The position numbers and the translations under genes are program-made. From a virus, in IMG/VR virus record IMGVR_UViG_3300007513_000009: a DNA stretch of 64,000 nt, one strand, 5' to 3'. This document shows, piece after piece, positions 25,912-43,644 of this stretch; positions within the stretch are counted from its first letter, which is position 1, and each line of letters begins with the position of its first letter. The notes under the pieces were generated by a model that saw only the letters and a program-made list of their open reading frames with translations, made no database searches and was not told where the DNA came from.

Positions 25912-27021
25912 ATGGTAAGTAAAACTGAAAATCGTGATAATTTAGCAACTGTTATAGCGGATGAATTAAATAAACAATCTAAGACACACCAGGTTGCTTA
26001 TTTTTTAGATGGGGTGCAAGAAACACCAACTGATGTCACGGATTGGATTTCTACAGGTTCTACTTTATTGGATTTGGCTGTATCAAATAAACCACTTGGT
26101 GGATTGGCTGCTGGAAGAATAACAGAATTAAATGGACTTGAAGGTAGTGGTAAATCTTTGATTGGAGCACATGCTCTTGCATCTACTCAAAAGAAAGATG
26201 GACTTGCTGTTTATATAGATACTGAATCTTCTGTTTCATCTGAATTTTTACAAGCAATTGGTGTAGATACAGAGAGTATGTTATATATTCATTTAGAAAC
26301 CGTTGAAGAAATATTTGATACAATAGAAACAATTATTACAAAAATAAGAGAATCAAGTAAAGATAAATTAGTCACTATATTAGTTGATAGTTTAGCAGCT
26401 GCTTCCACTAAGATGGAAATGGATGCCGACTATGATAAAGATGGTTGGGCTACATCAAAGGCAATTATTTTATCTAAGGCTATGAGAAAAGTAACTCAGA
26501 TGATTGCTCGTCAAAAAGTGTGTTTGATATTTACTAATCAACTTCGACAAAAACTTGGTGTAATGTTTGGAGACCCTTGGACTACAAGTGGTGGAAAAGC
26601 ATTACCATTTCATGCATCTACTCGTGTAAGATTAAAGAATGTTGGACAGATAAAAGATACCAAAAAAAATACTGTTGGTATTAAGATTAGGGCACAAGTC
26701 ATTAAGAATCGATTAGGTCCACCTTTGAGAAGTGCTGACTTTCAACTGTACTTTGATAAAGGTATTGATGATTTTGGTAGTTGGTTGGGTATATTGAAAG
26801 ATCATAAATTACTCAAACAGGCTGGTGCTTGGTATACATTTGAAGACCAAGATGGAAAAGAACATAAGTTCCAATCTAAAGATTGGGGTTCTTTGATGGC
26901 TGATGTAGATACACAAAAATATGTATATAATTTGATATGTGATAAAGTAATACTAAAATACGATTCTGCTAAACTCGGTATCGATGATGTGTCTACTTCA
27001 GATGAACTTGTAGATGAGTAA
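25912..27021 (+). CDS. recA: RecA/UvsX recombinase
   Basis: ISTGS..LD, Walker A GLEGSGKS, VDSLAA, FTNQLR, GGKALPFHASTR, KNRLGPP. Confidence 0.92.
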   Translation: MVSKTENRDNLATVIADELNKQSKTHQVAYFLDGVQETPTDVTDWISTGSTLLDLAVSNKPLGGLAAGRITELNGLEGSGKSLIGAHALASTQKKDGLAVYIDTESSVSSEFLQAIGVDTESMLYIHLETVEEIFDTIETIITKIRESSKDKLVTILVDSLAAASTKMEMDADYDKDGWATSKAIILSKAMRKVTQMIARQKVCLIFTNQLRQKLGVMFGDPWTTSGGKALPFHASTRVRLKNVGQIKDTKKNTVGIKIRAQVIKNRLGPPLRSADFQLYFDKGIDDFGSWLGILKDHKLLKQAGAWYTFEDQDGKEHKFQSKDWGSLMADVDTQKYVYNLICDKVILKYDSAKLGIDDVSTSDELVDE

Positions 27022-28063
27022 GAAATCACTTTCTAAATTATTTAAAGAATATGAATCAGATATAGTCACAAAACCAATTAGTAGAAAGCCGGATGATCAT
27101 ATATTCATTTCTGATGGTTTAAATACTTTTATTAGGGCTTTTGCTGTAAATCCATCTATGAATGAGGATGGTAGTCATATTGGTGGGATAGTTGGTTTTC
27201 TTAAATCAATTCGTTTTGGGATAAATAAGTTTAAACCAACACGCTGTGTTATAGTGTTTGATGGGAAAAATGGTTCTAAAAAGCGCCGCAAATTATATCC
27301 ACAATATAAAATTGGTAGAGGAGTTAGTTCCAGATTAAATCGTACTGTTGATTGGACAATGACACCAACTGATGAAGCTGAATCTATGAGAATTCAATTA
27401 GTTAGATTGGTGGAGTATTTAGAACATTTACCAATAACAGTAATTTCGGTTGATGGTGTAGAGGCTGATGATGTTATTGGTTATTTAACTAACACTACAT
27501 TAAAAGATTCTAAATGCACTATTATGTCAACTGATAAGGATTTTCTACAATTAGTTTCTGATAGAGTTGAGTTATATTCACCCACAAAGAAAATTACATA
27601 TAATGAGGAATTGGTAAAAAAAGAGTTTGGAGTTTACCCACAAAATATGTTAACTTGTAGAACTGTAGAAGGTGATAAGTCGGACAATATAACGGGGGTA
27701 AGAGGAATTGGGGCTAAAACAATGATTAAGGAATATCCTATGTTAAGCGAAAATCAAAAGTTTGATGTTAAAATGTTAATAGATAGTGCTAATTCTAAAT
27801 CAACAAGAATTTCAAATATTATTAAAGATAGTCAAATGGTTATAAAGAGAAATTATATTTTGATGCAATTGTATGATCCCGATATACCAAATCATACAAA
27901 GTTGAAAATAACAGATGCTATACGAGAATATAAACCAACAATTGTTAAGTATAAACTACAGAGATTATTAGTTGAAGATAAATTATGGGGACACATACCT
28001 AATTTTGATAATTGGATAACTGAATTTATGTTATTACGACATTATTGGAATAATAAGAAATGA
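27014..28063 (+). CDS. 5'-3' exonuclease / flap endonuclease (T4 RNase H-like)
   Basis: DGLNTFIR, VFDG, EADDVIG, STDKDFLQL, GDKSDNITGVRGIG. Confidence 0.9.
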   Translation: MSKKSLSKLFKEYESDIVTKPISRKPDDHIFISDGLNTFIRAFAVNPSMNEDGSHIGGIVGFLKSIRFGINKFKPTRCVIVFDGKNGSKKRRKLYPQYKIGRGVSSRLNRTVDWTMTPTDEAESMRIQLVRLVEYLEHLPITVISVDGVEADDVIGYLTNTTLKDSKCTIMSTDKDFLQLVSDRVELYSPTKKITYNEELVKKEFGVYPQNMLTCRTVEGDKSDNITGVRGIGAKTMIKEYPMLSENQKFDVKMLIDSANSKSTRISNIIKDSQMVIKRNYILMQLYDPDIPNHTKLKITDAIREYKPTIVKYKLQRLLVEDKLWGHIPNFDNWITEFMLLRHYWNNKK

Positions 28064-28233
28064 AGAAATGGTATGAAATCAAAGCCACACATCCAAAACA
28101 TAAAGCTATGGGTAAGATTAAGTTTTGGTTATATAGGGAAAATAAAAAAGAAGTGCATGAATTGGTATTAAAGAAAGGTTATCAAAATATTGAATGGATT
28201 AGAGAAGGTACTCCATCTTTTTTGGATGAATAA
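28060..28233 (+). CDS. 57 aa hypothetical protein, not in the ORF track
   Basis: MKKWYEIKATHPKHK...PSFLDE; ATGA overlap upstream, stop abuts the helicase ATG. Confidence 0.6.
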   Translation: MKKWYEIKATHPKHKAMGKIKFWLYRENKKEVHELVLKKGYQNIEWIREGTPSFLDE

Positions 28234-29598
28234 ATGAGCAAAGAAAAAACAATATCAGAATACGGATATTCCTTCCAAATTAAGTTTTTAGTTTGTTTGA
28301 TGCAAGACAAATTATTTCTTGAACAAATACATGATATATTGGATGAGAAATATTTAGGAAATGATGCATTTCAATGGGTATTAAAAGAAATACATCAATA
28401 TTATTCAGATTATAAAGATGTTATTACATTGAATGTATTTAAAATTAAAGTACAAGAAATTGATTCTGATGTATTACAATTAAATGTAAAGGAAATTTTA
28501 AAAGAAGTATATAAGAATACAGAAGCAATTGATTTAGATTATATTAAAGATAAGGCATTGGACTTTCATAAATCACAAGTATTGAAGAATGCTATAATTA
28601 AATCAGCTCAAATATTAGAAGTTGATGGTGATACTGATGAAATTAAGTCTATTATTGATACTGCTATGCAAGCTGGGGTTGAGAGAAATTTAGGGCACGA
28701 TTATTTACAAGATATAGATAGACGATATGAAGAATCGGCAAGAATAACATCACCTACGCCGTGGGATATAATAAATGAGTTAATGCAAGGTGGATTGGGT
28801 GCTGGTGAATTGGGAGTTGTAGTTGCTCCAGCTGGTATTGGTAAATCTTGGACATTGGCTGCCATGGGTGCTTATGGAATTTCTAAAGGATTGAATGTTG
28901 TACATTATACATTGGAGTTAAATGAAGCCTATGTTGGATTACGGTACGATAGTATTTTTAGTGGTGTTGAAGGTCAAAATTTAAAATATCATAAAGAAGA
29001 AGTGATGGAGAAGTTATTTAAATTGGATGGTAATTTAACTATCAAGTATTATCCAACTAAATCCTGTACAGTTAATACATTATCTGCTCATTTGAAAAAG
29101 GTCATTACATTTGGTGAAAAGGTAGATATGGTATTGGTCGATTATGCTGATATTATGAGAGATACAAATAAACATACAGAGATGAGACACGCTTTGGGAA
29201 GTATCTATGAGGATTTACGAGGATTGGCTGGTGAAATGCAAATACCGATATGGACAGCAAGCCAAGCTAACAGAAGTGCGTTGGATGAAGATGTGATTGA
29301 AGCCAGTAAAGTTGCTGAATCTTACGCTAAAGTTATGACGGCGGACTTTGTGGTGTCGTTAAGTCGTAAGATAGAAGATAAGATAAGTAATACTGGTCGT
29401 TTTCATGTGATTAAGAATCGGTTTGGTCCTGATGGTTTGACTTATCCTGCTCGCATCAATACAAATATTGGTAAGATAGAGATATTTGAATCGAGTTCAG
29501 TACAAGGTAAAGATGTTCAACATAAAATTAAAAATCGTGATAATCAGACTAAAGCTATATTATCTGCTCGTTATGATGATTTAATGGATGATGAGTAA
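28234..29598 (+). CDS. Replicative DnaB-like helicase (gp41-like)
   Basis: Walker A APAGIGKS, YTLEL, VDYAD, WTASQANR, KNRFGPDG. Confidence 0.9.
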   Translation: MSKEKTISEYGYSFQIKFLVCLMQDKLFLEQIHDILDEKYLGNDAFQWVLKEIHQYYSDYKDVITLNVFKIKVQEIDSDVLQLNVKEILKEVYKNTEAIDLDYIKDKALDFHKSQVLKNAIIKSAQILEVDGDTDEIKSIIDTAMQAGVERNLGHDYLQDIDRRYEESARITSPTPWDIINELMQGGLGAGELGVVVAPAGIGKSWTLAAMGAYGISKGLNVVHYTLELNEAYVGLRYDSIFSGVEGQNLKYHKEEVMEKLFKLDGNLTIKYYPTKSCTVNTLSAHLKKVITFGEKVDMVLVDYADIMRDTNKHTEMRHALGSIYEDLRGLAGEMQIPIWTASQANRSALDEDVIEASKVAESYAKVMTADFVVSLSRKIEDKISNTGRFHVIKNRFGPDGLTYPARINTNIGKIEIFESSSVQGKDVQHKIKNRDNQTKAILSARYDDLMDDE

Positions 29599-29647
29599 TT
29601 ATTTTCATATTTATATTTATAAGATTTTAAGGTTTATAAGGTAGTCA

Positions 29648-31636
29648 ATGAGTAAAAAATTTACATTATCGGAAAATTTTGTTTCCAAATACAAAAGAAA
29701 AAAACCACCATTCGGATTTAATGGTCTGGGTGAATTGGTCTATATGAGAACTTATTCTCGTGTTAAAAAAAATGGTAAAAATGAAAGATGGTGGGAAACC
29801 ATCAAGAGGGTTGTAGAAGGGACATATTCAATGCAAAAAAATTGGATAGATTCTCATCAATTGGGTTGGAATCCTTGGCAAGCACAAGCATCAGCTCAAG
29901 AAATGTATGACCGAATGTTCAATATGAAGTTCTTACCGCCTGGTCGAGGTCTTTGGGCTATGGGAACACCAATTACTGAGAAAAAAGGTTTATATGCCGC
30001 ACTTAATAATTGTGCATTTGTATCAACTGGAACTATTAAGGATGATTATTCAAAACCATTCTGTTTTTTAATGGATGCAAGTATGTTAGGTGTTGGTGTT
30101 GGTTTCGATACAAAAGGTGCTGGTGAGGTTATGATTAAATTACCTAATCCAAATAGAGGTATAGAAGAATATGAGATACCAGATACACGAGAAGGATGGG
30201 TAGAATCATTAAAGTTATTGTTAGAGAGTTATTTTCATGGAACATCAGAAATTCAATTTGATTACACAAAGATTAGACCAGCAGGCGCACCAATCAAAGG
30301 TTTCGGTGGTGTATCAAGTGGACATGAACCTTTAGAAGAAATTCATGAAGAGATAAGAAAAGTATTAAATAGAAATGTAGAAAATCCTATAACCACAACA
30401 ACCATTGTTGATATAATGAACCTAATTGGTAAATGTGTTGTCGCAGGTAATGTAAGAAGGACAGCAGAAATTGTATTTGGTGATCCACAGGATGATGAGT
30501 ATTTAGATCTTAAAAATTATGAAGTAAACCCACATAGGGAACAATATGGTTGGACTTCAAATAATTCTATATTTGCAGAACTCGGTATGGATTATACTGA
30601 TGTTTGTAAGAGAATTAATGATAATGGTGAACCAGGATTTGCATGGTTGGATAATATGAGAAAATTTTCTCGTATGCAAAATGGTGGTGATAATAAAGAC
30701 CATAGAGTCGCGGGTGGTAATCCTTGTCTTGAACAATCACTTGAATCATATGAGTTATGTTGTTTAGTAGAAACTTTTCCAAATAACCATGAGTCATTAG
30801 AGGACTATAAAAGGACACTTAAATATGCTTATTTGTATGCCAAAACGGTAACACTTGGAAAGACTCATTGGAGTGAAACCAATAGAGTTATGTTAAGAAA
30901 TAGACGAATTGGATGTTCAGTAAGCGGTGTTGCACAGTTTGTTACTAAACATGGTTTAGAAGAATTAAAAAATTGGTTAGAAGATGGATATGATACAATT
31001 CAAGAATGGGATAAACAATATAGTGATTGGTTAGCAGTACCAAAGTCAATTAAAACAACATCAGTTAAACCAAGTGGTACGGTTTCACTCTTAGTAGGAG
31101 CAACTCCTGGAATGCACTATCCAGAGTCAAGATTTTATATCCGTAGGATGAGACTATCAAAACATTCGGAGTTAATAGAACCATTAAAGAAAGCTGGATA
31201 TAATGTAGAACCAGCATATGGTTCAGAAGATTCCACAGTTGTAGTAGATGTGCCCGTTGATGCGGGGGAGGGTATAAGAACTGCGGCTGAACTTTCGATT
31301 TGGGAACAATTCAGTTTAGCTGCATTCTTACAACGACATTGGGCAGATAACCAAGTTAGTTGTACAGCAACATTCAATCCTGAAACAGAAGCTGAAGAAC
31401 TGCCACATGTATTAAATTATTTTCAATATAGATTAAAAGGTATATCGTTATTACCAAGAAAAAATGGTGGAGCTTACAAACAGATGCCATATGAAGCAAT
31501 AGATGAAAAAACATATCATTTTGAAACTGAGAAACTTGGATATTTGAGTTTTGTTGGTGTTGAAGGTGAAGAAGCAGAAATAGATAAATTTTGTAATAAT
31601 GATGTATGTGAAATTCCAATCGGAGGTCAAGTATGA
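29648..31636 (+). CDS. nrdJ: Class II (adenosylcobalamin-dependent) ribonucleotide reductase, monomeric RTPR type
   Basis: RTYSR, PPGRGLW, LNNCAF, GNVRRTAEI, NPCLEQ, VKPSGTVS, C-terminal C-x4-C; no beta subunit nearby. Confidence 0.9.
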   Translation: MSKKFTLSENFVSKYKRKKPPFGFNGLGELVYMRTYSRVKKNGKNERWWETIKRVVEGTYSMQKNWIDSHQLGWNPWQAQASAQEMYDRMFNMKFLPPGRGLWAMGTPITEKKGLYAALNNCAFVSTGTIKDDYSKPFCFLMDASMLGVGVGFDTKGAGEVMIKLPNPNRGIEEYEIPDTREGWVESLKLLLESYFHGTSEIQFDYTKIRPAGAPIKGFGGVSSGHEPLEEIHEEIRKVLNRNVENPITTTTIVDIMNLIGKCVVAGNVRRTAEIVFGDPQDDEYLDLKNYEVNPHREQYGWTSNNSIFAELGMDYTDVCKRINDNGEPGFAWLDNMRKFSRMQNGGDNKDHRVAGGNPCLEQSLESYELCCLVETFPNNHESLEDYKRTLKYAYLYAKTVTLGKTHWSETNRVMLRNRRIGCSVSGVAQFVTKHGLEELKNWLEDGYDTIQEWDKQYSDWLAVPKSIKTTSVKPSGTVSLLVGATPGMHYPESRFYIRRMRLSKHSELIEPLKKAGYNVEPAYGSEDSTVVVDVPVDAGEGIRTAAELSIWEQFSLAAFLQRHWADNQVSCTATFNPETEAEELPHVLNYFQYRLKGISLLPRKNGGAYKQMPYEAIDEKTYHFETEKLGYLSFVGVEGEEAEIDKFCNNDVCEIPIGGQV

Positions 31637-32790
31637 AAACACTATTAAGAGACTTATCACCTAAATGGTGGTCTGTTGTAATTTGGATATTAGCCGCAAT
31701 AATATTATGTGGTAATAAAGTATATGGACAATTAGAGGTCGGGGATATTTCACCTGATTTCGAAGCACCAGTTTGTGTTAATGATAACACAGAAGATGGT
31801 TATTGGAGCCTATATGAAGAAGGAGCTAATAAGGTTACTTGGATTAATCTATTTACATCTTGGTGACCATCCTGTCAAACGGAGGCTCCGCAAACAGAAA
31901 GTATTTGGCAAGGATTTATCGCAGAAAACGAAACATATGTTAATGTAATTGCAAATGGATTTGATTGGTCAACCTATAGTTGTGAGGGATGGGCAGATGC
32001 ATTTGGGATAAGTTATCCAATATTAGATGGTGGTACAAGTGGTGGTGAAGCTTGGACACTTTATGGAGATGGATACATACCACATAATGTAGTATTAGAT
32101 CATAACTACGAAGTTCTCTATACAGCTTCAGGATATTCTGAAGGTGCTATATTGGCTGCTATAGAATTAGGATTATCTTATATACCGAGAGATTTAGACC
32201 AAGATGGTATACTGGATTCTATAGATAATTGCATAGACATACAGAACTATGACCAACTAGATACTGATGGGGATGGTATGGGTGACGCGTGTGATCAATG
32301 TGACAATTTAGTATTTACAGGTGGGAATGTAGATGGTAATGGTACTATAGATATTTTAGATGTGATGTTTTTAGTAGATATGTTGTTGGGAACTGATACA
32401 TATATTTGTGCAGAAGAAGCAGGAGACATAACACAAGATGGTTATTTGAATGTATTGGATGTCATAGGTTTGGTTCAAATTATATTAGGTGGTAATCAGC
32501 AACAAGCTATGCAATACTTACAACAGATATTGGATCCAATTCAATTCAAACAATTGACACAAGAATTATTTATGGTAGAGGCACCCAAAGTACTTGTGTG
32601 GCCTAATCCATCAAATAGTGTTATGAATATTACTGGTTATGGACATGTTCAGATATATGATATGTTAGGTAGAGAAGTATATAATAATCATTTAAATGGG
32701 CATCATATTTGGGATACTCGTAAATTATCAAGTGGTATGTATGCTTTGGTTAATTATGGTGAGGTAGTTATAGTTACTTTATTAAAATAA
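31633..32790 (+). CDS. Secreted redoxin (TlpA/AhpC-TSA-like) selenoprotein, Sec78, with TSP3 repeats, dockerin-like domain and T9SS-type C-terminal domain; 385 aa via UGA recoding
   Basis: Track ORFs 31633..31866 and 32152..32790 share one frame interrupted only by TGA 31864-31866, giving FTSW-U-PSC-QTEAP; SECIS-like hairpin follows. Confidence 0.8.
31867..31897 (+). promoter_or_regulatory. Candidate bacterial SECIS element
   Basis: CTGT(31872-75)/ACAG(31894-97) lower stem, CGGA/TCCG upper stem, GGC apical loop starting 18 nt after the UGA. Confidence 0.55.
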
Positions 32791-32792
32791 TC

Positions 32793-32822
32793 TTGACTTA
32801 TATAGGGTTTTATTGTTATATT
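32793..32822 (+). promoter_or_regulatory. Sigma70-like promoter (TTGACT-18-TATATT, extended -10)
   Basis: Upstream of PolB. Confidence 0.55.
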
Positions 32823-32854
32823 TACATATCGAAAATGGGGATTTTATAATCTAA

Positions 32855-35389
32855 ATGTATCAGAATATTTGGTCTGAGAAAAGAGCGAATAATCAAGTTG
32901 AAGTTCACTTATGGGATGATGTAGCTGGTTATCAGAATTTTATATTTAAGAATTATGCCTATGTAAAAGATGGAGGTGGTCAATATCGCTCCATTTATGG
33001 TGATAAGTTAAAAAAAATAAATTATTGGTCAGAAGAAGATTTTAAAACCGGTAAAGTTTTTGAGTCTGATATACCATTGGATACTCGCATTTTAATGGAT
33101 AGATATCCTGATTCTGATGAACCATCCAAAGATCATGTTGAATTATATTTTGATATTGAGGTTGAAGTTACAGATGGATTTCCCCTGCCGGAGGAAGCAA
33201 AGAATAAAATTACTTCTGTCGCACTTTATAATAACATTGATGAAGAATATAAAGTTTATGTATTAGGAAACACACAAGACTTCAGGAGTGAAGCTAAAAA
33301 TTTATCGATTTCAAAAAACAATGTAAGAATTTTTGATTCGGAGTATGAATTATTACAAGCATTGTTGAAGTATTGGGTTGAAATAAAACCAACAATAATT
33401 ACGGGGTGGAATATAGATAAATTTGATGTTCCTTATCTATATAATAGGATGACTCAGTTTTTGGGAATGGATATGGCTAATGCTCTTTCACCAATAGGTA
33501 AAGTTGTTTATAATCAGAATAAAAAGAGATATAGGATAGCTGGTGTTAGTTCGTTAGATTATTTGGAGTTGTATAAGAAATTTACTTTTATAAGTCGATC
33601 TAGTTATCGATTGGATTATATAGGTCAGATAGAAGTTGGTATGGGTAAGGTTGAGTATGAAGGTACATTAGACCAATTGTTAGAAAATAACATTGAAAAG
33701 TTTATTGAATATAACTTAGTTGATGTTAAGATTATTGTAGCATTAGAGAAGAAGTTAAAATTAATTGATTTGGCTAAAGCTGTATCTCATATGGGTAGAA
33801 TACCATATGAAGAAGTATATTTTAGTTCTCGATATATTGAAGGTGCCATGTTAACCTATTTGAAAAGTCTCAACTTAGTTGCTCCAAGTAAAAGATATGA
33901 TGTGAGTTATGATAATTCTCGCGTTGGGTTTAGTGGTGCTTATGTGAAGGATCCTAATCCTGGTAAATATGAATGGGTGTTTGATTTGGATTTAACTTCT
34001 ATGTATCCATCTGTTATTATGTCATTGAATATATCACCTGAAACAAAAATTGGAAGATTAAATGGTTGGGATGCTGAAGAATTTTTGAGAGGGGATGAAA
34101 AAACTTATACAGTAAAAAAGGGGAAGAAAGTCATTCGTAGATTTAGTACTGGTGAGTTGAAAGATTTTTTAAATAAGAATAAGGTATCAATTTCTTCTAA
34201 TGGAGTGTTATATCATTTAGATAGAAAAGGTGTTATACCAGCAATACTTGAAAAGTGGTTTAATGAAAGAGTTGAATACAGAGGATTGGTTAAGAAATAT
34301 AGTAAAGATGGTAATAATGAATTACATGATTATTTTGATAGAAGGCAATATGTCCAAAAGATTCTTTTGAATAGTTTTTATGGTGTATTGGGGTTACCAG
34401 TATTTAGATTTTATGATATTGATAATGCTGAAGCTACTACTACAACTGGTGTTACATTGATTCAATTTACAGAGAAAATAGCTAATTATTATTATAATAA
34501 AATTTTAAAAACAAATGAAGATTATTGTATATATACTGATACAGATTCGGTTTTTTATTCTGCTATTCCATTGATTAACAAAAGATTTCCTGATGCTGAT
34601 TTTGGTGATGTAAAGTTTATGACAAAACAGATTTTGGATATCGCTAGTGAAGTGCAAGATTATATTAATAAATCTTATGATTATTTTTCAAGTAAATTTT
34701 TGAATATTAAGGAAGAACATCGGTTTGACATTAAACAAGAGGTTATTGCTAAGAGTGCTTTTTGGGTAACTAAAAAACGATACGGTCAATGGATTATCAA
34801 TGATGGTGGTACTACATGTGAGAAACTTGATGTAAAGGGATTAGATATTGTTAGAAGTTCTTTCCCACCAGCATTTCAGAAGTTTATGACAAATATATTG
34901 AAAGCTATTCTTCATGATATTGATAAGGAAAAGATTGATAATTTCATATTAGGTTTTAAGAAGAAGTTAGATACTAATGAAATTATTGACATATCGTTAC
35001 CAAGTGGTGTAAAGGGGATTAAGAAGTATTCTTATAAATCAAATAAAGGTGATATCTTTACAAAGATGAAATCTGGAGCTCCAGTACATGTAAAAGCATC
35101 GGTATCTTATAATGATTTATTGAGACATTTTAATGCTAATCATTTGGAACCAATTAGAAATCATAGTAAAATTAAATGGGTATATTTAAAAAGTAATCCA
35201 TTTCATTTAGATACTATTGCATATAAGGGGTATGATGATCCAGATGAGATTATGGATTTTATATCTAAATATATAGATAGGGATAAATTATTTGATAGGG
35301 CATTAACAAAGAAAATAAAAATGTTTTACGATGCTTTGAAGTGGGATATGCCCGTAGATAAACAAAATACAGTAGAAAGATTTTTTTAG
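32855..35389 (+). CDS. Family B DNA polymerase (gp43-like)
   Basis: Exo DIEVE, GWNIDKFD, YNLVDV; Pol DLTSMYPS, KILLNSFYG, YTDTDS, KKRY. Confidence 0.95.
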   Translation: MYQNIWSEKRANNQVEVHLWDDVAGYQNFIFKNYAYVKDGGGQYRSIYGDKLKKINYWSEEDFKTGKVFESDIPLDTRILMDRYPDSDEPSKDHVELYFDIEVEVTDGFPLPEEAKNKITSVALYNNIDEEYKVYVLGNTQDFRSEAKNLSISKNNVRIFDSEYELLQALLKYWVEIKPTIITGWNIDKFDVPYLYNRMTQFLGMDMANALSPIGKVVYNQNKKRYRIAGVSSLDYLELYKKFTFISRSSYRLDYIGQIEVGMGKVEYEGTLDQLLENNIEKFIEYNLVDVKIIVALEKKLKLIDLAKAVSHMGRIPYEEVYFSSRYIEGAMLTYLKSLNLVAPSKRYDVSYDNSRVGFSGAYVKDPNPGKYEWVFDLDLTSMYPSVIMSLNISPETKIGRLNGWDAEEFLRGDEKTYTVKKGKKVIRRFSTGELKDFLNKNKVSISSNGVLYHLDRKGVIPAILEKWFNERVEYRGLVKKYSKDGNNELHDYFDRRQYVQKILLNSFYGVLGLPVFRFYDIDNAEATTTTGVTLIQFTEKIANYYYNKILKTNEDYCIYTDTDSVFYSAIPLINKRFPDADFGDVKFMTKQILDIASEVQDYINKSYDYFSSKFLNIKEEHRFDIKQEVIAKSAFWVTKKRYGQWIINDGGTTCEKLDVKGLDIVRSSFPPAFQKFMTNILKAILHDIDKEKIDNFILGFKKKLDTNEIIDISLPSGVKGIKKYSYKSNKGDIFTKMKSGAPVHVKASVSYNDLLRHFNANHLEPIRNHSKIKWVYLKSNPFHLDTIAYKGYDDPDEIMDFISKYIDRDKLFDRALTKKIKMFYDALKWDMPVDKQNTVERFF

Positions 35390-35418
35390 TTGACAAATTG
35401 AAAAAAAATGTGTAAATT
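35390..35418 (+). promoter_or_regulatory. Sigma70-like promoter (TTGACA-17-TAAATT)
   Basis: Perfect -35 and 17 nt spacer upstream of the clamp gene. Confidence 0.6.
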
Positions 35419-35447
35419 AAACAATAATATAAATCATAGGAGATTAT

Positions 35448-36161
35448 ATGAATAAACTATCATTAAATGCTTTTATTCAGAAATACCATCTTGGTGGTAA
35501 TGTAAATTCAGTTACATGGAATTCTGATGGAACGACATTAGCTACTAGATTCATTTCAGGTGATAAGAGTTTGCTTGGTGAACTTTCTTTAGCTAAACAA
35601 AAATTACCAGAATTCGAAGTTGGGGTGTATGACACCACTTTGTTATTTAAAATGCTATCCACACTTTCAGATAAGGTGGATTTTAAAGTTAACGAAGTGG
35701 ATAATCAGCCGGTTAATTTTAATTTTACAGATACAACACTTTCTGTTGATTATGTTTTAGCTGCTACAGGGGTTATACCTGATGTGCCGGAAATGAAAAA
35801 GATACCTGAGTTTGGTACTTCGTTGAATTTAAATTCACAATTTATTACTTCTTTCATTCGTGGAAAAGGTGCTTTGGCTGATGTAGAAACTTTTGCAATT
35901 ACTCCTGTTAGTGGTGGGGTTGAATTCACAATTGGATATTCAGATATGAATTCTAATAGGATTAGTATTGCTGTACAAAGTGGTGCTGTTGATTTAGAAA
36001 ATCCTGTTATATTTAATGCTGATTTATTTAAAGAAGTGTTAAGTGCTAATAAAGAATGTTCTAAAGCTACTCTTAAAGTATCTTCTAAAGGTCTTGCTTA
36101 TATAGAGTTTAAGATAGATAATTTTGTTGCAAAATACTATTTAGTATCACAACAGACTTGA
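35448..36161 (+). CDS. Sliding clamp (gp45-like)
   Basis: 237 aa between PolB and clamp loader; FEVGVYDT and VSSKGLA..F......YYL pattern. Confidence 0.7.
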   Translation: MNKLSLNAFIQKYHLGGNVNSVTWNSDGTTLATRFISGDKSLLGELSLAKQKLPEFEVGVYDTTLLFKMLSTLSDKVDFKVNEVDNQPVNFNFTDTTLSVDYVLAATGVIPDVPEMKKIPEFGTSLNLNSQFITSFIRGKGALADVETFAITPVSGGVEFTIGYSDMNSNRISIAVQSGAVDLENPVIFNADLFKEVLSANKECSKATLKVSSKGLAYIEFKIDNFVAKYYLVSQQT

Positions 36162-36162
36162 T

Positions 36163-37071
36163 ATGAAATCACATGGATTATGGGTTGAAAAATATCGCCC
36201 TCAAGACCTATCAACTTATGTAGGTAATGACAATTTAAAAGTTAAGGTTGCTAGATTTATAGAGGAGCAAAATGTACCACAATTGCTTCTTTATGGAAAG
36301 GCTGGTGGTGGTAAAACCACACTTGCTAAAATTATTGTTAATAATGTTGAGTGTGATTATCTTTATATTAATGCATCGGATGAAAGAAACATAGATTTGG
36401 TTCGAGACAAGTTGAAGACATTTGCTTCTTCAATTGGTTTTAAACCAAATAAGATTGTTATTTTGGATGAGGCTGATTACCTAAATCCCAATTCTGCTCA
36501 ACCAGCTCTTCGTAATTTAATGGAAACATTTTCTGTTCATTGTCGATTTATATTGACTTGTAATTATGTTGAAAAAATTATCGATCCATTACAAAGTAGA
36601 TGTCAGACTTATAAGATAATACCACCATCAAAGAAAGAGGTGGCACTTCATGTAAAAGGCATTTTAGAAAAAGAAAATATTGATTTTGATTTGGATGATT
36701 TAGCATTAATAGTAACTGCTGGTTATCCAGATTTGAGAAAAATCATCAATGATTTACAAAGACAATGTATTGATGGTGAGTTGAAAGTTGATAAACAAGG
36801 AATGTTGAATAATGAATTTAAATTATTGTTTATTGAATCATTAAAAAATCGTGATGATATACGGACAATTAGACAGTTGGTGGCTAATAATAATTTTACT
36901 GATTTTACAGAATTATTTAGGTTGATGTATGATGAAGTAGAAAATTTTGCTGATGATAGAATCGCTGAAGCCATAGCAGAGATTTCAAATGGCCTTTATC
37001 AAGATATTTTAGTGCCCGATAAAGAGATAAATTTTATAGCAACAATTTCAAATATGTTAAGGAAAATATAA
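36163..37071 (+). CDS. Clamp loader AAA+ subunit (gp44/RFC-like)
   Basis: LWVEKYRP, GKAGGGKTT, INASDER, ILDEAD, LQSRC. Confidence 0.92.
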   Translation: MKSHGLWVEKYRPQDLSTYVGNDNLKVKVARFIEEQNVPQLLLYGKAGGGKTTLAKIIVNNVECDYLYINASDERNIDLVRDKLKTFASSIGFKPNKIVILDEADYLNPNSAQPALRNLMETFSVHCRFILTCNYVEKIIDPLQSRCQTYKIIPPSKKEVALHVKGILEKENIDFDLDDLALIVTAGYPDLRKIINDLQRQCIDGELKVDKQGMLNNEFKLLFIESLKNRDDIRTIRQLVANNNFTDFTELFRLMYDEVENFADDRIAEAIAEISNGLYQDILVPDKEINFIATISNMLRKI

Positions 37072-37319
37072 TGAATATGAAAGCACAAAAACCAATAAAA
37101 CAACCACAACAACAAGTACAAGTTGATTTAACAACTGCTGAAACTATGACATGTGCTGAGTGTGAAAATAAAATTTTTATACAAGGTTATGTGGTAAAAA
37201 GAATATCGGCTATAGTTTCACCTACCGGAAAAGAAGTCATTGCTCCAGTTCAAGTTTTTAATTGTGGAAACTGTGGTGAGATATTAAATATTGGTGGGGA
37301 AATGGATGAACTTATTTAA
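37071..37319 (+). CDS. Zinc-ribbon hypothetical protein
   Basis: CAEC...CGNCG. Confidence 0.65.
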   Translation: MNMKAQKPIKQPQQQVQVDLTTAETMTCAECENKIFIQGYVVKRISAIVSPTGKEVIAPVQVFNCGNCGEILNIGGEMDELI

Positions 37320-37725
37320 GTGGATTAACGAATTATTTGTTGGAAAGAGGGATTGGAATACATTTACCGATGATGATAAAAAAACCTTTAGTCCATTTAT
37401 GATTAATCGATATTTAAGTATGAAGGAAGATTATTTACCAATAGTCAATCATTTTCAGAAATTTACAATTCTAACGATGCCACATAGTGCTGTGTATCGT
37501 TTCTACTGTAATCTTTTGCCAAAGCAAAAGGTTTATTTAAAATATATGAGTGGTAATAAAAGAAAAGTGAATAAAGATTTGATTGGCTATTTGGTAGATT
37601 ATTTTGAAGTAAGTACTCGCCAAGCTTTAGATTATTATGATTTATTTAACAATAGTGATTTAAAATCTATATTGAGGGAATATGGAAAATCTAAAAAAGA
37701 AATGAAAACAATGGGATTAAAATGA
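37306..37725 (+). CDS. Clamp loader small subunit (gp62-like)
   Basis: PFMINRYLS motif, YFEVS..QA..Y; synteny; ATG 37306 preferred to the track start. Confidence 0.65.
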   Translation: MNLFKWINELFVGKRDWNTFTDDDKKTFSPFMINRYLSMKEDYLPIVNHFQKFTILTMPHSAVYRFYCNLLPKQKVYLKYMSGNKRKVNKDLIGYLVDYFEVSTRQALDYYDLFNNSDLKSILREYGKSKKEMKTMGLK

Positions 37726-38621
37726 AGTGTTTAGTTACAGGTGGTGCTGGATTTATTGGTTCTAACTTAATTAAGCGATTGGTAAGTGATGGGCACAAGG
37801 TTGTATCATTGGATAATTATTCTACTGGTAAGAAAGAAAATGAAGTGGATGGTTGTCAATATTTTGAAGTCGATTTATCAGAGGTAAAGTATTATTCGTT
37901 TTTTCAAGACAAACCTTCTGTGATTTTTCATTTAGCTGCATTGTCTCGTATTCAACCATCGTTTGATGATCCAGAACAAACATTTAAATCTAATATATAT
38001 TCTACTGTTAATATAATGGAAGATGCGAGACGAAATCAAATACCTGTTGTATATGCTGGAACATCATCTGTGCATGGTGATAAATATATTAATCCATATA
38101 CATTTACAAAGTGGCAAGCTGAAGAGATAGTAAAAATGTATAGCGAGTTATTTGATATACCAAGTTGTATTTGTAGATTTTATAATGTTTATGGGCCAGG
38201 GCAGACTACTGAAGGGGCTTATTGTAATGTTCTTGGAGTCTTTGAAAAACAATATAGAGAAGGTAAGCCATTAACTATTACGAGTGATGGAGAACAAAGA
38301 CGAGATTTTATTCATGTTGAAGATGTAGTAGATGGGATGGTAAGGTGTATGCAGGCTATGCATGGTGTTGTGGATAGGAGATTTTCTGGTTGGTCATTTG
38401 AGTTAGGGTCTGGAAAAAATTATTCAATTAATGAAATAGCTAAGGCGTTTTCAATCATAACGCCTATGGGTAGTGGTGAATATCCAACTAAATATATTGA
38501 TGCTAAATCAGGAGAGATGAGAGAAACTTTATGCACAGATGGTACAGCTAATGAGATATTAGATTGGAATCCTAAAGGTGATATAATAGAATATATAAGA
38601 GAGGAGTTGGTAAATGAGTAA
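37722..38621 (+). CDS. NAD-dependent nucleotide-sugar epimerase/dehydratase
   Basis: TGGAGFIGS, HLAA, YTFTK (YxxxK), RFYNVYGP, RRDFIHVED. Confidence 0.9.
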   Translation: MKCLVTGGAGFIGSNLIKRLVSDGHKVVSLDNYSTGKKENEVDGCQYFEVDLSEVKYYSFFQDKPSVIFHLAALSRIQPSFDDPEQTFKSNIYSTVNIMEDARRNQIPVVYAGTSSVHGDKYINPYTFTKWQAEEIVKMYSELFDIPSCICRFYNVYGPGQTTEGAYCNVLGVFEKQYREGKPLTITSDGEQRRDFIHVEDVVDGMVRCMQAMHGVVDRRFSGWSFELGSGKNYSINEIAKAFSIITPMGSGEYPTKYIDAKSGEMRETLCTDGTANEILDWNPKGDIIEYIREELVNE

Positions 38622-42282: not shown

Positions 42283-43644
42283 ATGTCTAAAAAGAAGATT
42301 TTGTTGATGTCGGATGATTTAAGAATGCATAGTGGTATAGCTACTGTATCTAAAGATATTGTAGTTGAAACTTTACATAAATATGATTGGGTTCAATTGG
42401 CTGGTGCTATAAAACATCCTGAAGAAGGTAAGGTGGTGAATATGGATGCGGCAATAGCAGACATATCAGGGGTAAATGATGCAAAATTGACAATTTATCC
42501 AACAAGTGGATATGGTAATCCAGAAGTAGTAAGAGAAATATTAGTTAGAGAAAAACCAGATGCAATACTACACTATACTGATCCAAGATTTTGGATTTGG
42601 TTTTATGAGATGGAAGCGGAAATTCGTAGAGAGATTCCAATTTTTTATTATAACATTTGGGATGATTTACCAGATCCACAATACAATACAAATTATTATA
42701 GAAGTTCTAATTTGTTAATGGCAATATCAAAACAGACTTATGGTATAAATAAACGATTGTTACCAGATTATGAAGATTGGCAAGTAACTTATGTTCCACA
42801 TGGTATTTCATCTCGTAGGTTTTATAAAATTGATGATGCTGATAATGAACTTTTGGAATTTAATGATAAATTTGGAATATCGGATAAAAAATTTAGAGTA
42901 TTATATAGTAATAGAAATATTAGAAGAAAACAACCAGGCGATGTTATGTTGGCATATAAATACTTTATGGATGAGTTAACTCCTGAACAACGAGATGAAT
43001 GTGTATTGATATACCATTGTGCTCCAGTAGATGATAATGGAACTGATTTGCCAAGGATGTGTAGACATTTGATGCCAGATTATGATGTATGTTACACACA
43101 TCATATGGGCGGAACATTTGAAGATAAAGAAATGAATTTATTATTTAATTCATCTGATGTCTATATTAACCTTGCTAGTAATGAGGGTTTTGGTTTAGGT
43201 AGTGCTGAAGCACTTACAGTTGAGACACCCATTATTGTAAATGTTACAGGTGGTTTACAAGATCAATGTGGATTTAGAAATGAAGATGGGGAACTGTTGA
43301 TACCAGATGATTATGTTGAGTTGGGTAGTAACCATAGGGGTAAATACAAAAATCACGGTGAATGGGTAAAACCTGTTTATCCAGCGAGTCGTTCATTACA
43401 AGGTTCTCCACCCACACCATATATTTGGGATGATAGATGTAATCCAGAAGATGCTGCACCATTACTTCGTGAGTTCTATGATATGGGTAGAGAAGAAAGA
43501 AAAAGACTTGGTTCATTGGGAGCTCAGTTCTGTAAAGACAATCAAATGACATCTGAAGAAATGGGTGCCAACTTTATTAAGTCTATGGATGGGGCATTTA
43601 AAAATTGGAAACCAGCAAAAAGATATACGGTGGAGAAGATATGA
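42283..43644 (+). CDS. Glycosyltransferase, GT-B (GT4-like)
   Basis: NRNIRRKQ, NEGFGLGSAEA (ExFGxxxxEA). Confidence 0.85.
   Translation: MSKKKILLMSDDLRMHSGIATVSKDIVVETLHKYDWVQLAGAIKHPEEGKVVNMDAAIADISGVNDAKLTIYPTSGYGNPEVVREILVREKPDAILHYTDPRFWIWFYEMEAEIRREIPIFYYNIWDDLPDPQYNTNYYRSSNLLMAISKQTYGINKRLLPDYEDWQVTYVPHGISSRRFYKIDDADNELLEFNDKFGISDKKFRVLYSNRNIRRKQPGDVMLAYKYFMDELTPEQRDECVLIYHCAPVDDNGTDLPRMCRHLMPDYDVCYTHHMGGTFEDKEMNLLFNSSDVYINLASNEGFGLGSAEALTVETPIIVNVTGGLQDQCGFRNEDGELLIPDDYVELGSNHRGKYKNHGEWVKPVYPASRSLQGSPPTPYIWDDRCNPEDAAPLLREFYDMGREERKRLGSLGAQFCKDNQMTSEEMGANFIKSMDGAFKNWKPAKRYTVEKI

What the first reader, a model, noticed from the sequence alone, without database searches (positions are those of the whole stretch)
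31633..32790. Hidden phage-encoded selenoprotein: UGA inside a thioredoxin-fold W-U-P-S-C active site
Seen: the two track ORFs (31633..31866, 32152..32790) share one frame, and the intervening 31867-32151 has no stop. The only interruption is TGA 31864-31866, giving VGDISPDF...TWINLFTSW-[TGA]-PSCQTEAP...FGISYPILD...IPHNVVLD. Known: TlpA/AhpC-TSA redoxins have F.xW-C-x-x-C at this position, and UxxC variants are a common class of bacterial selenoproteins. TGA is a normal stop elsewhere here (many ATGA overlaps, e.g. 1375-1378, 43641-43644), so this is not genome-wide recoding. Inference: a 385 aa Sec78 protein that depends on host SelA/SelB/tRNA-Sec (none seen in this window). To my knowledge selenoproteins in phages are barely described.
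Basis: partly seen in the sequence, partly recalled or inferred. Interest (0 to 1): 0.92.

Follow-up and report, generated by a model that had tools for sequence, protein, structure and literature searches.

The report
Phage-encoded selenocysteine redoxin, host-derived
A large marine phage carries a secreted thioredoxin-like enzyme gene whose apparent stop codon almost certainly encodes selenocysteine. The gene appears to be copied from its likely host group (Marinimicrobia), which makes phages carriers and users of selenoprotein genes, something I could not find reported.

Summary

**The gene.** Window 31633-32790 (+) is one 385-codon frame with a single TGA at 31864-31866. The TGA sits where TlpA/ResA-type redoxins have the first Cys of CxxC.

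**Evidence that the TGA encodes selenocysteine (Sec):**
- All 101 homologous loci examined keep TGA at this site. They include IMG/VR phage contigs, marine metagenome contigs and Marinimicrobia MAG contigs, down to 42% identity.
- True Cys forms exist at 39-54% identity.
- Both sides of the TGA are under purifying selection.
- A conserved hairpin follows the UGA (GGA-GGC-UCC core, loop 17 nt after the codon). It shows compensatory C-G/U-A changes and a forced GAG codon. The Cys forms lack it.

**Phage and host.** The contig is a true myovirus with capsid, sheath, RNR and PolB genes, and it uses TGA as a normal stop elsewhere. It has no selA, selB, selD or tRNA-Sec. The closest cellular homologues (73-74% identity) lie in Marinimicrobia/Fidelibacterota genomes that have selA, selB, selD and the T9SS translocon SprA; one also has tRNA-Sec.

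**Second selenoprotein.** The same phage genome also carries a SelW/Rdx-like CxxU gene.

**Novelty.** The protein kind (UxxC Prx/Trx-like selenoprotein) is known. Being phage-borne is new to the literature I could search. This scan has flagged one other phage selenoprotein, on different DNA (e1-3445121).

The parts
31633..32790 (+). Complete selenoprotein gene: 385 codons plus TAA stop, with Sec at codon 78. Its ATG overlaps the stop of the upstream RNR gene (ATGA at 31633-31636).
   Evidence: frame; Pfam domains; more than 300 homologues.
31633..31731 (+). N-terminal signal peptide: a hydrophobic helix at residues 10-27, ending around VYG-Q.
   Evidence: Read from the sequence. The AF2 model has helix 10-27. 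Homologues align with ...FGQ/AQ-TY ends. The cleavage site is inferred, not predicted with a dedicated tool.
31738..32139 (+). TlpA/ResA-like thioredoxin-fold redoxin domain (residues 36-169) with active site W-U78-P-S-C81.
   Evidence: Pfam AhpC-TSA, 29.5 bits against a cut-off of 26. U78 aligns with the first Cys of CxxC in StoA 3erw and ResA 4nmu. In the AF2 model U78 sits at the N-terminus of helix 79-99. Foldseek top hits are ResA/DsbE/CcmG, TMt about 0.8.
31864..31866 (+). In-frame UGA read as selenocysteine (codon 78).
   Evidence: TGA in 101 of 101 homologous loci. Cys (TGT/TGC) in the more distant forms L190-L193.
31872..31897 (+). SECIS-like stem-loop. Lower stem 31872-31875 with 31894-31897; upper stem 31879-31883 with 31887-31891; apical loop GGC at 31884-31886, 17 nt after the UGA. 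In this window the outermost upper pair is an A.C mismatch.
   Evidence: The GGAGGCTCC core is kept in 78 of 81 unique sequences. Pair 16-26 is C-G in 42 and U-A in 32. Covariation score is 0.206 against 0.116 in shuffles (0 of 500 shuffles reach it).
32191..32466 (+). Calcium-binding-type module (residues 187-278): thrombospondin type-3 repeats followed by a dockerin-like segment. The same module ends the Omp28-related selenoprotein of Marinimicrobia.
   Evidence: Pfam TSP_3 and Dockerin_1, both below their cut-offs. NCBIfam NF045500 matches residues 168-285, model positions 255-376 of 377, E 2e-28. Host loci L020, L196 and L198.
32596..32787 (+). Type A C-terminal sorting domain of the type IX secretion system (residues 322-385).
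   Evidence: PF18962, 32.9 bits against a cut-off of 27. TIGR04183, 29 bits against 23. The AF2 model shows a beta-sandwich at 321-383 with pLDDT 80-92.

Best explanation
The gene encodes a 385-residue exported selenoprotein. It consists of a signal peptide, a TlpA/ResA-like thiol-disulfide oxidoreductase domain with active site Sec78-Pro-Ser-Cys81, a TSP3/dockerin-like calcium-binding-type module, and a type IX secretion C-terminal sorting domain.

During infection the host's SelB with Sec-tRNA(Sec) would recognise the stem-loop that starts 8 nt after the UGA (apical GGC loop 17 nt after it) and insert selenocysteine instead of terminating. The phage supplies the gene and its SECIS. The host supplies SelA, SelB, SelD and tRNA-Sec.

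The product would then be exported by the Sec system and the T9SS to the cell surface, where a selenosulfide/selenol active site reduces or isomerises disulfides or other oxidised substrates.

The gene is a host-derived auxiliary gene. Its nearest relatives are chromosomal genes of Marinimicrobia (SAR406, Fidelibacterota), which is therefore the likely host phylum.

What is shown:
- the conserved UGA;
- Sec/Cys pairing with more distant homologues;
- the conserved, covarying hairpin;
- the thioredoxin fold with Sec at the CxxC position;
- the phage identity of the contig;
- Sec and T9SS genes in the candidate hosts.

What is inferred:
- actual Sec insertion;
- export and surface display;
- the substrate;
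- the benefit to the phage;
- host identity (about 0.7 on its own).
For: 1. **Conserved UGA.** TGA is at the same codon in 101 of 101 loci. The motifs are W-U-PS-C (64), W-U-GS-C (27) and W-U-GP-C (8). This holds down to 42% identity.
2. **The 'W' forms are artefacts.** Public 'full-length' proteins with W at the site translate to the stored protein only if TGA is read as W. They are gene-calling artefacts, not Trp codons.
3. **Cys forms exist.** Homologues at 39-54% identity carry TGT or TGC.
4. **Active-site position.** U78 aligns with the nucleophilic Cys of CxxC in StoA and ResA. In the model it sits at the N-terminus of helix 1 of a ResA/DsbE-like fold.
5. **Purifying selection.** dN/dS is 0.10-0.18 upstream of the TGA and mostly 0.10-0.34 in the 49 codons from +13 to +61 after it, which lie before any internal start codon.
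6. **Hairpin and codon bias.**
   - Glu codon +6 is GAG in 78 of 81 sequences, while Glu +11 is GAA in 72 of 81.
   - Ala +7 is GCT in 79 of 81.
   - Codon +5 ends in G in 78 of 81.
   - Pair 16-26 is C-G (42) or U-A (32), with at least 2 independent switches on a tree built without the hairpin columns.
   - The count of structure pairs gives 88.4% of cells paired and a covariation score of 0.206, against 0.116 in shuffles (0 of 500) and at most 0.101 in slid controls.
   - The four Cys forms mostly use GAA and cannot form the stem.
   - Two outliers without the core have a different strong hairpin at the same place, z -2.3 and -2.6.
7. **Standard genetic code.** TGA ends 45 of 154 long ORFs. 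The only tRNAs in the record are two tRNA-Gly(UCC).
8. **Phage identity.** Major head protein, tail sheath, DnaB, RNR and PolB are present. PolB is 73% and 55% identical in two other records that carry the gene.
9. **Candidate hosts.**
   - Among 185,579 species genomes, the only full-domain hits are Marinimicrobia/Fidelibacterota.
   - 51 of 201 genomes of that phylum have homologues, most with one in-frame TGA, the best at 73-74% identity.
   - The window's copy groups with four cellular copies, SH-aLRT 100.
   - Two such genomes have selA, selB and selD over the curated cut-offs, one has tRNA-Sec, and both have SprA.
10. **A second selenoprotein.** The same phage genome has a SelW/Rdx gene (C-G-E-U; Pfam Rdx E 2.8e-21 across the TGA) with its own hairpin. 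A related phage has both genes, and its SelW hairpin covaries.
Against: - No direct evidence of selenium incorporation or of the full-length protein.
- The window's own hairpin is weak: a 4-bp upper stem plus an A.C mismatch. Single-sequence folding is no better than shuffles, z -0.75 and -0.35.
- RNAalifold predicted no consensus pairs on the 72-sequence alignment.
- Rfam has no match.
- The covariation at pair 16-26 rests on few independent events (2 on the tree), and the sequences are related.
- The amino-acid motif Q-x-E-A-P is also conserved in the Cys forms, so part of the nucleotide conservation is protein-driven.
- The host link is by gene homology only. There is no CRISPR spacer, prophage or single-cell evidence.
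- The record is about 70% complete, so phage-borne Sec factors cannot be excluded.
Confidence: 0.87

Rival explanations
1. The UGA is read through without selenocysteine. A near-cognate tRNA would insert Trp or Cys, or read-through would be a low-level programmed event, so the full-length protein exists but is not a selenoprotein.
For: No experiment shows Sec. The window's own hairpin is thermodynamically weak. The phage record has no Sec machinery.
Against: The UGA sits exactly on the catalytic Cys of a CxxC redox motif, which is the classic Sec position, and Trp there would abolish catalysis. There are 101 TGA codons and no TGG, TGT or TGC within the close family. That is hard to explain unless UGA encodes something neither Trp nor Cys can replace. 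The hairpin conserved in the Sec forms is absent from the Cys forms. The candidate hosts are Sec-competent.
Confidence: 0.05
2. The TGA is a genuine stop. The locus would then be a pseudogene, or two separate genes: a 77-residue peptide plus a C-terminal protein started at an internal codon.
For: Gene callers split the gene in this way. Most public homologues are annotated as proteins of about 280 residues that start after the TGA.
Against: The TGA splits a single thioredoxin fold between strand 1 and helix 1. The codons from +13 to +61 after the TGA, which lie before any internal start, are under purifying selection, dN/dS mostly 0.10-0.34. The frame and the stop position are conserved in 101 of 101 loci across phages and bacteria. 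The annotated internal starts differ between homologues.
Confidence: 0.03
3. The phage uses an alternative genetic code in which TGA is a sense codon (for example code 4 or 25), as stop-recoded phages do.
For: Some database entries for homologues were translated with TGA = W.
Against: TGA terminates 45 of 154 long frames. Only two genes in 131 kb have a convincing in-frame TGA, and both are at known selenoprotein redox motifs. There is no suppressor tRNA; the only tRNAs are two tRNA-Gly(UCC). The cellular homologues have the same single TGA.
Confidence: 0.01
4. The gene is cellular, not viral: the contig would be a chimera or a mis-classified bacterial fragment.
For: The nearest homologues of the window's copy are chromosomal Marinimicrobia genes. 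The IMG/VR record is a linear fragment.
Against: The gene's ATG overlaps the stop codon of a phage RNR gene, and phage PolB follows 65 nt downstream, inside a 64-kb block that is almost entirely co-directional and includes capsid and sheath genes. GC is 32% against 43% for the cellular loci. Thirteen other distinct IMG/VR contigs carry the gene, and two of them share the PolB. The same junctions appear in contigs from other samples.
Confidence: 0.02

Closest known systems
UxxC 'Prx-like' / 'Trx-like' bacterial selenoproteins catalogued from marine metagenomes (Zhang & Gladyshev 2008, PMC2398784: Prx-like 1, PF00578, UxxC; Prx-like 3, PF08534, UxxC)
   Same: Thioredoxin fold, PF00578/PF08534 similarity and a UxxC motif with Sec in place of the first Cys. 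They are marine and have many Cys homologues. One of my homologous loci (L140, accession prefix AACY) has an accession prefix I recall as that of the Sargasso Sea/GOS assemblies.
   Different: That catalogue does not mention phages ('phage' 0 times). A later GOS re-analysis states that selenoprotein families have few or no viral sequences (PMC9402790). The present proteins add a TSP3/dockerin-like module and a T9SS sorting domain.
ResA / StoA / TlpA / CcmG (DsbE) extracytoplasmic thiol-disulfide oxidoreductases (PDB 4nmu, 3erw, 1su9, 3gl3, 2b1k)
   Same: Same fold (Foldseek TMt about 0.8), the same position of the redox motif and an extracytoplasmic location.
   Different: Those proteins use CxxC and are membrane-anchored or periplasmic, typically serving cytochrome maturation or sporulation. 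This one has Sec, is only 15-24% identical to them, and carries surface-targeting modules.
NCBIfam NF045500, Omp28-related selenoprotein
   Same: It shares the C-terminal TSP3/dockerin-like module (E 2e-28). In Marinimicrobia its gene lies directly upstream of the cellular homologue of this redoxin, and it is also a UxxC selenoprotein (U-P-Y-C).
   Different: The N-terminal catalytic domain is unrelated (Omp28-like, not TlpA-like). The score of 99.9 is below the cut-off of 200, so this protein is not a member.
Selenoproteins of eukaryotic viruses (molluscum contagiosum virus and fowlpox glutathione peroxidases; from my own knowledge, and PMC8310308 notes UGA-to-Sec redefinition in a few viruses)
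   Same: A virus-borne gene that depends on the host's Sec-insertion machinery.
   Different: Those use eukaryotic 3'-UTR SECIS elements and SBP2/eEFSec. This gene has a bacterial-type SECIS inside the coding sequence, read by SelB, in a tailed phage.
Predicted tRNA-Sec genes in huge phages (PMC10747093)
   Same: They suggest that phages may engage Sec decoding.
   Different: That paper reports only tRNA predictions and identifies no selenoprotein gene. Here the selenoprotein genes are found and the phage has no tRNA-Sec.

Membership tests
Bacterial selenoprotein gene (SelB/SECIS-dependent UGA recoding) | In-frame UGA conserved across orthologues | tested here: met
   TGA in 101 of 101 loci, including cellular genomes.
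Bacterial selenoprotein gene (SelB/SECIS-dependent UGA recoding) | Homologues with Cys aligned to the UGA | tested here: met
   P0125, P0128, P0132 and P0142 carry W-C-x-x-C. Their DNA has TGT or TGC. StoA and ResA also align Cys there.
Bacterial selenoprotein gene (SelB/SECIS-dependent UGA recoding) | Stem-loop immediately 3' of the UGA, with G in the apical loop at SECIS spacing. The bSECIS consensus (16-37 nt from UGA to loop) is recalled from memory. | tested here: met
   The GGC loop lies 17 nt after the UGA. The upper helix is 91% paired, with 3 of 5 pairs showing compensatory changes. Caveats: RNAalifold found nothing, and single-sequence z-scores are not significant.
Bacterial selenoprotein gene (SelB/SECIS-dependent UGA recoding) | selA, selB, selD and tRNA-Sec available in the translating cell | tested here: inconclusive
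   Absent from the 131-kb phage record. selA, selB and selD are present in two Marinimicrobia genomes that carry the closest homologues; tRNA-Sec was found in one of them. The host itself is inferred.
Bacterial selenoprotein gene (SelB/SECIS-dependent UGA recoding) | Selenium actually incorporated at the UGA | not testable with these tools
   Needs 75Se labelling or mass spectrometry.
TlpA/ResA/DsbE-type redoxins (Pfam AhpC-TSA PF00578, Redoxin PF08534) | Profile score over the curated cut-off | tested here: met
   PF00578 scores 29.5 against a cut-off of 26. PF08534 scores 24.1 against 26.6, just below.
TlpA/ResA/DsbE-type redoxins (Pfam AhpC-TSA PF00578, Redoxin PF08534) | Thioredoxin fold with the redox motif at the N-terminus of helix 1 | tested here: met
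   AF2 model, pLDDT about 80 over the domain, with U78 before helix 79-99. Foldseek hits ResA, DsbE and CcmG with E down to 9e-10.
T9SS type A cargo (PF18962 / TIGR04183) | C-terminal sorting domain over the cut-off, plus an N-terminal signal peptide | tested here: met
   32.9 bits against 27 and 29 bits against 23. An N-terminal hydrophobic helix is present.
T9SS type A cargo (PF18962 / TIGR04183) | Host possesses a T9SS | tested here: inconclusive
   SprA is over the cut-off in both candidate host genomes. The host is inferred.
NF045500 Omp28-related selenoprotein | Full-length match over the cut-off (200 bits) | tested here: not met
   99.9 bits, and only model positions 255-376 match, which is the shared C-terminal module.
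Stop-codon-recoded phage (TGA as a sense codon genome-wide) | TGA not used as a terminator, many in-frame TGAs, and a suppressor tRNA | tested here: not met
   TGA ends 45 of 154 long frames. Only two candidate in-frame TGAs were found. There is no suppressor tRNA.
GOS 'Prx-like 1/3' selenoprotein subfamilies | Clustering with the published subfamily sequences | not testable with these tools
   Only the Pfam/motif description is available. It fits: PF00578/PF08534 and UxxC.

The most novel reading that the evidence does not exclude
Uncultured T4-like marine myoviruses that infect Marinimicrobia (SAR406) routinely carry selenoprotein genes with SECIS elements matched to the host's SelB. These include a T9SS-exported Sec-redoxin and a SelW-like protein. 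The phages would use them to rebuild or boost a selenium-dependent redox module on the surface of the infected cell, the partner of the host's neighbouring Omp28-related selenoprotein, which shares the same dockerin-like module. Phages would then be both consumers of the host's selenium and Sec-decoding capacity and vectors that shuttle selenoprotein genes together with their SECIS between lineages. That would add a viral term to marine selenium use.
Probability: 0.35. Interest if true: 0.88.

Novelty: new variant of a known kind. Interest (0 to 1): 0.78.

Why it matters
**A new class of auxiliary gene.** Selenoproteins have been treated as a cellular trait. The surveys I could read find essentially none in viral sequence (PMC9402790), and the bacterial selenoprotein catalogues do not mention phages (PMC2398784, PMC13326102). 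Here a widespread family of marine phages carries at least two selenoprotein genes with working-looking SECIS elements. This auxiliary gene can only function by using the host's UGA-recoding machinery.

**A host marker.** It gives a handle on the hosts of an uncultured phage lineage. The likely host is Marinimicrobia, an abundant and uncultured ocean phylum.

**An annotation problem.** Virome annotation pipelines systematically split or mistranslate these genes. They appear either as truncated products of about 280 residues or as products with 'W' at the Sec site.

**Testable questions.**
- Do phage SECIS elements co-evolve with host SelB?
- Does infection change cellular selenium demand?
- Why is a Sec-dependent surface redoxin useful to a phage?

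Tried and rejected
- **RNAalifold** on 72 aligned sequences predicted no pairs. I relied instead on explicit pair counting with controls.
- **Single-sequence folding** of the window's region is not better than shuffles.
- **Rfam** gave no hit at gathering thresholds over the whole window, and no hit at E up to 10 over 31800-32000.
- **Synteny.** The window's replication-module proteins found no match in the 2.5-kb flanks of the other IMG/VR loci, so the gene sits in different contexts in different phages.
- **INPHARED.** No homologue of the protein in 50,697 deposited phage genomes.
- **Sec machinery in the phage.** No selA, selB, selD or tRNA-Sec. The weak RF01852 hit is an ordinary tRNA-Gly.
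- **RNA evidence.**
  - A contig from a run guessed to be RNA covers 31794-32270 at about 92% identity and keeps the TGA and the hairpin.
  - An oligo-dT RNA run has short contigs downstream of the TGA.
  - These are contigs, not raw reads, and DNA carry-over cannot be excluded, so I do not count this as evidence of expression.
- **First motif regex.** My first pattern missed most loci. It was corrected.
- **Literature.** Searches for natural phage selenoproteins found none. The library lacks most subscription journals.
Full report
**Observation.** Window 31633-32790 (+) is a single open frame of 385 codons. The start ATG overlaps the stop of the upstream gene (ATGA at 31633-31636).

**What the protein is.** Pfam finds four features:
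- AhpC-TSA (residues 36-160, 29.5 bits against a cut-off of 26) and Redoxin, just below its cut-off;
- weak thrombospondin type-3 and dockerin signals (residues 187-278);
- a T9SS C-terminal sorting domain (residues 322-372, 32.9 bits against 27).

NCBIfam adds ResA-, StoA- and DsbE-like similarity. It also gives a strong partial match (E 2e-28) between residues 168-285 and the C-terminal third of NF045500, the 'Omp28-related selenoprotein'. Against solved structures, the TGA codon aligns with the first Cys of the CxxC motif of StoA (3erw), ResA (4nmu) and a Chlorobium TlpA-like protein. An AlphaFold2 model (mean pLDDT 74.9) places residue 78 at the N-terminus of helix 79-99, directly after strand 68-75. 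That is the canonical thioredoxin active-site position. The model also shows an N-terminal helix (signal peptide) and a C-terminal beta-sandwich. Foldseek's best matches are ResA, DsbE, CcmG and other extracytoplasmic thiol-disulfide oxidoreductases, with TM about 0.8 on the target and E down to 9e-10.

**The contig is a phage and uses the standard code.** The window belongs to a 131,241-bp IMG/VR record estimated at 70% complete. The window encodes a major head protein, a tail sheath, a DnaB-like helicase, a ribonucleotide reductase (directly upstream) and a family-B DNA polymerase (directly downstream). The nearest deposited phage PolB is only 45% identical (Microcystis phage Mel-JY01), followed by T4-like cyanophages and vibriophages at 31-35%. 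This is therefore an uncultured, T4-related myovirus lineage. TGA terminates 45 of 154 long frames. The only tRNAs are two tRNA-Gly(UCC). A genome-wide scan for genes with a single in-frame TGA gave just two convincing cases.

**Conservation of the UGA.** A protein search found more than 300 homologues. Most are annotated as products of about 280 residues that begin downstream of the TGA. A minority are 'full-length' with W at the site. For two of the W forms I fetched the DNA. They match the stored protein only if TGA is read as Trp, so they are gene-caller artefacts.

I collected DNA for 101 loci:
- 16 loci from IMG/VR viral contigs;
- 2 short assembly contigs (one from an NCBI assembly, one from ENA);
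- 2 Marinimicrobia/Fidelibacterota MAG contigs;
- 80 marine metagenome contigs;
- the window itself.

Every one has TGA at the homologous codon. None has TGG, TGT or TGC. The flanking motifs are W-U-P-S-C (64), W-U-G-S-C (27), W-U-G-P-C (8) and two singletons. An exhaustive profile-free search with the redoxin domain found true Cys forms at 39-54% identity. The DNA of four of them has TGT or TGC. Contigs assembled independently from two other samples of the source study cover the site with no differences. Pairwise dN/dS against close relatives is 0.10-0.18 for the 40 codons upstream. For the 49 codons from +13 to +61 after the TGA, which lie before any possible internal start, it is mostly 0.10-0.34. 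Both parts are therefore translated in this frame.

**SECIS-like element.** In 81 unique Sec-form sequences the codons after the UGA show strong synonymous constraint:
- The Glu at +6 is GAG in 78 of 81, while the equally conserved Glu at +11 is GAA in 72 of 81. GAA is the expected choice in these AT-rich genomes.
- Ala +7 is GCT in 79 of 81.
- Codon +5 ends in G in 78 of 81 and is usually a rare NCG or GTG codon.

These bases form a hairpin. Counting from the T of TGA, the upper stem pairs positions 15-19 with 23-27, the loop G-G-C lies at 20-22, and a lower stem pairs 8-11 with 30-33. Pair 16-26 is C-G in 42 sequences and U-A in 32, with only 4-5 mismatches. Position 16 is a second codon position (Thr/Ala/Ser against Val) and position 26 is the Pro wobble. 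Pair 15-27 shows G-C, U-A, U-G, G-U and C-G.

On a tree built without the hairpin columns, the C-G/U-A switch occurred at least twice. Explicit pair counting on a 72-sequence alignment gives 88.4% of cells paired and a covariation score of 0.206. Column shuffles give 0.116 (0 of 500 as high) and slid registers give at most 0.101. Three of the five upper-stem pairs show compensatory change. The four Cys forms mostly use GAA at +6 and cannot make the stem. The outliers that lack the core (represented by L161 and L162) have a different, strong hairpin at the same place, z -2.3 and -2.6.

From memory, an A-U-closed G-G-(U)-C apical loop about 17 nt after the UGA resembles the SelB-binding tip of the E. 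coli fdhF SECIS and fits the bSECISearch spacing rule. I did not test that here.

There are caveats. The window's own copy has an A.C mismatch at pair 15-27 and folds no better than shuffled sequence. RNAalifold returned no consensus. Rfam has nothing.

**Who supplies the Sec machinery.** The phage record has no selA, selB, selD or tRNA-Sec. Among one genome for each of 185,579 prokaryotic species, the only hits that cover the redoxin domain were two Marinimicrobia/Fidelibacterota MAGs, and both have TGA at the site. Both genomes have selA and selB (adjacent) and a selD that is itself interrupted by one TGA, all over the curated cut-offs. One has a tRNA-Sec over the Rfam threshold, and both have the T9SS translocon SprA.

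A sample of 201 genomes of that phylum gave homologues in 51. Most matches have one in-frame TGA, several genomes have multiple paralogues, and the best matches are 73-74% identical. In three genomes the cellular gene (509-511 residues in two of them, which keep the T9SS domain) lies between an Omp28-related selenoprotein gene (U-P-Y-C) and a Y_Y_Y-type sensor gene. These loci have 43% GC against 32% for the phage.

In a tree of the redoxin domain, the window's copy groups with four cellular copies (SH-aLRT 100) rather than with the other IMG/VR copies. Phage and cellular sequences are interleaved, needing at least 2-3 label changes. The gene has therefore moved between these phages and Marinimicrobia more than once, and the cellular and phage copies share the same hairpin. 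Marinimicrobia is thus the most likely host phylum. This remains an inference from gene content.

**A second selenoprotein in the same phage.** An earlier first-reader note on this genome (e1-5736083) pointed me to it, and I checked it. About 21 kb beyond the window's end (G000:C1 about 46143-46373, minus strand; L194:344-574) lies a 76-codon gene, M-N-I-H-I-E-Y-C-G-E-[TGA]-N-Y-K-P..., which matches Pfam Rdx (SelW-like) end to end across the TGA, E 2.8e-21. A hairpin CCCUUA-GUU-UAAGGG follows 19 nt later. A related phage record (G005) carries both the Sec-redoxin (L008) and an Rdx gene with one TGA. Its hairpin is CUCUCA-GUU-UGAGAG: the same loop on a covarying stem. Two selenoprotein genes in one phage make a chance or degenerate TGA very unlikely.

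**Mechanism (inferred).**
- The phage mRNA is translated in a Sec-competent host.
- SelB with GTP and Sec-tRNA(Sec) binds the hairpin just downstream of the UGA and delivers Sec.
- The preprotein is exported through the Sec system, and its C-terminal domain routes it through the T9SS to the cell surface.
- There the Sec78/Cys81 pair acts as a highly nucleophilic thiol-disulfide (selenosulfide) oxidoreductase.
- The TSP3/dockerin-like module, shared with the host's neighbouring Omp28-related selenoprotein, probably binds calcium and may dock both proteins to a common surface partner.

Why a phage benefits is open. Possibilities are maintaining or boosting a host surface redox or antioxidant function during infection, or altering disulfide-dependent surface receptors to exclude superinfection.

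**Comparison with the known.** The protein belongs in kind to the UxxC Prx-like/Trx-like selenoproteins described from marine metagenomes (PMC2398784: Prx-like 1, PF00578; Prx-like 3, PF08534). It has the fold of ResA, TlpA and DsbE. It is not a member of NF045500 (score below the cut-off, and only the shared C-terminal module matches).

What appears new is that it is phage-encoded:
- The GOS catalogue does not mention phages.
- A 2021 re-analysis states that families other than RNR II, plastocyanin and Cu-Zn SOD have few or no viral sequences.
- A 2026 bacterial selenoprotein database paper does not mention phages or viruses.
- A wastewater huge-phage paper reports only predicted tRNA-Sec genes.
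- Full-text searches found no natural phage selenoprotein.
- None of 50,697 deposited phage genomes has a homologue.

Selenoproteins of eukaryotic poxviruses are known (my own knowledge). Within this scan, another agent reported a phage thioredoxin-like Sec gene on different DNA (e1-3445121) and a T9SS-exported Sec-redoxin in Cloacimonadota (e1-1171596). I did not re-test those.

**Verdict.** This is a genuine phage-borne selenoprotein gene, very probably host-derived, and one of two in this phage. I put about 0.87 on Sec decoding and about 0.7 on Marinimicrobia as the host phylum. Novelty: a new variant of a known kind, namely a known selenoprotein type in a new genetic vehicle with consequences for virus-host biology. 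Interest: 0.78.

Noticed in passing
G000:C1 about 46143-46373 (minus strand) = L194:344-574 (-); about 20.9 kb beyond the window's end in window orientation: Second candidate selenoprotein in the same phage. It is a 76-codon SelW/Rdx-like gene with C-G-E-[TGA] (CxxU), Pfam Rdx E 2.8e-21, followed by the hairpin CCCUUA-GUU-UAAGGG.
   Followed up: yes
L195 (G005:C1:17834-18037, minus strand) and L008: A related IMG/VR phage record carries both the Sec-redoxin and an Rdx gene with one in-frame TGA. Its hairpin CUCUCA-GUU-UGAGAG covaries with the one in the window's genome.
   Followed up: partly
L020:3251-4426; L196:113-1324; L198:112-1311: In Marinimicrobia genomes an Omp28-related selenoprotein gene (motif U-P-Y-C, NF045500 type) lies directly upstream of the cellular Sec-redoxin. 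It ends in the same TSP3/dockerin-like module and has its own hairpin GCGAG-UUU-CGC about 17 nt after the UGA. The pair looks like a conserved two-selenoprotein surface module.
   Followed up: partly
P0002, P0006, P0010, P0046 and others; loci L018, L019: Public protein collections hold 'full-length' versions of this family with Trp at the Sec position. Short contigs were gene-called with a TGA = Trp table. Most other entries are N-terminally truncated at about 280 residues. Both artefacts hide the selenoprotein.
   Followed up: yes
G001:C103:11649-12575; G002:C34:25008-25934: The selD genes of both candidate host genomes contain one in-frame TGA, so SelD is itself a selenoprotein there.
   Followed up: no
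L002-L017 flanks compared with window 25912-38621: The Sec-redoxin gene has no conserved neighbours among the phage contigs. In L002 it follows a lipase-like gene. In the window it sits between RNR and PolB. This suggests repeated insertion or shuffling of a mobile auxiliary gene.
   Followed up: partly
L161:1663-1722; L162:233-292: A small clade with W-U-G-S-C-Q-S-S-A-P has lost the GGAGGCUCC hairpin. It has a different, much stronger stem-loop (about -22 to -24 kcal/mol, z about -2.5) at the same distance from the UGA. This looks like SECIS turnover within one gene family.
   Followed up: partly
L020:641-1207: The same Marinimicrobia contig also encodes an ordinary Cys-type TlpA-like protein (W-C-M-P-C) a few kb upstream of the two selenoprotein genes.
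   Followed up: no
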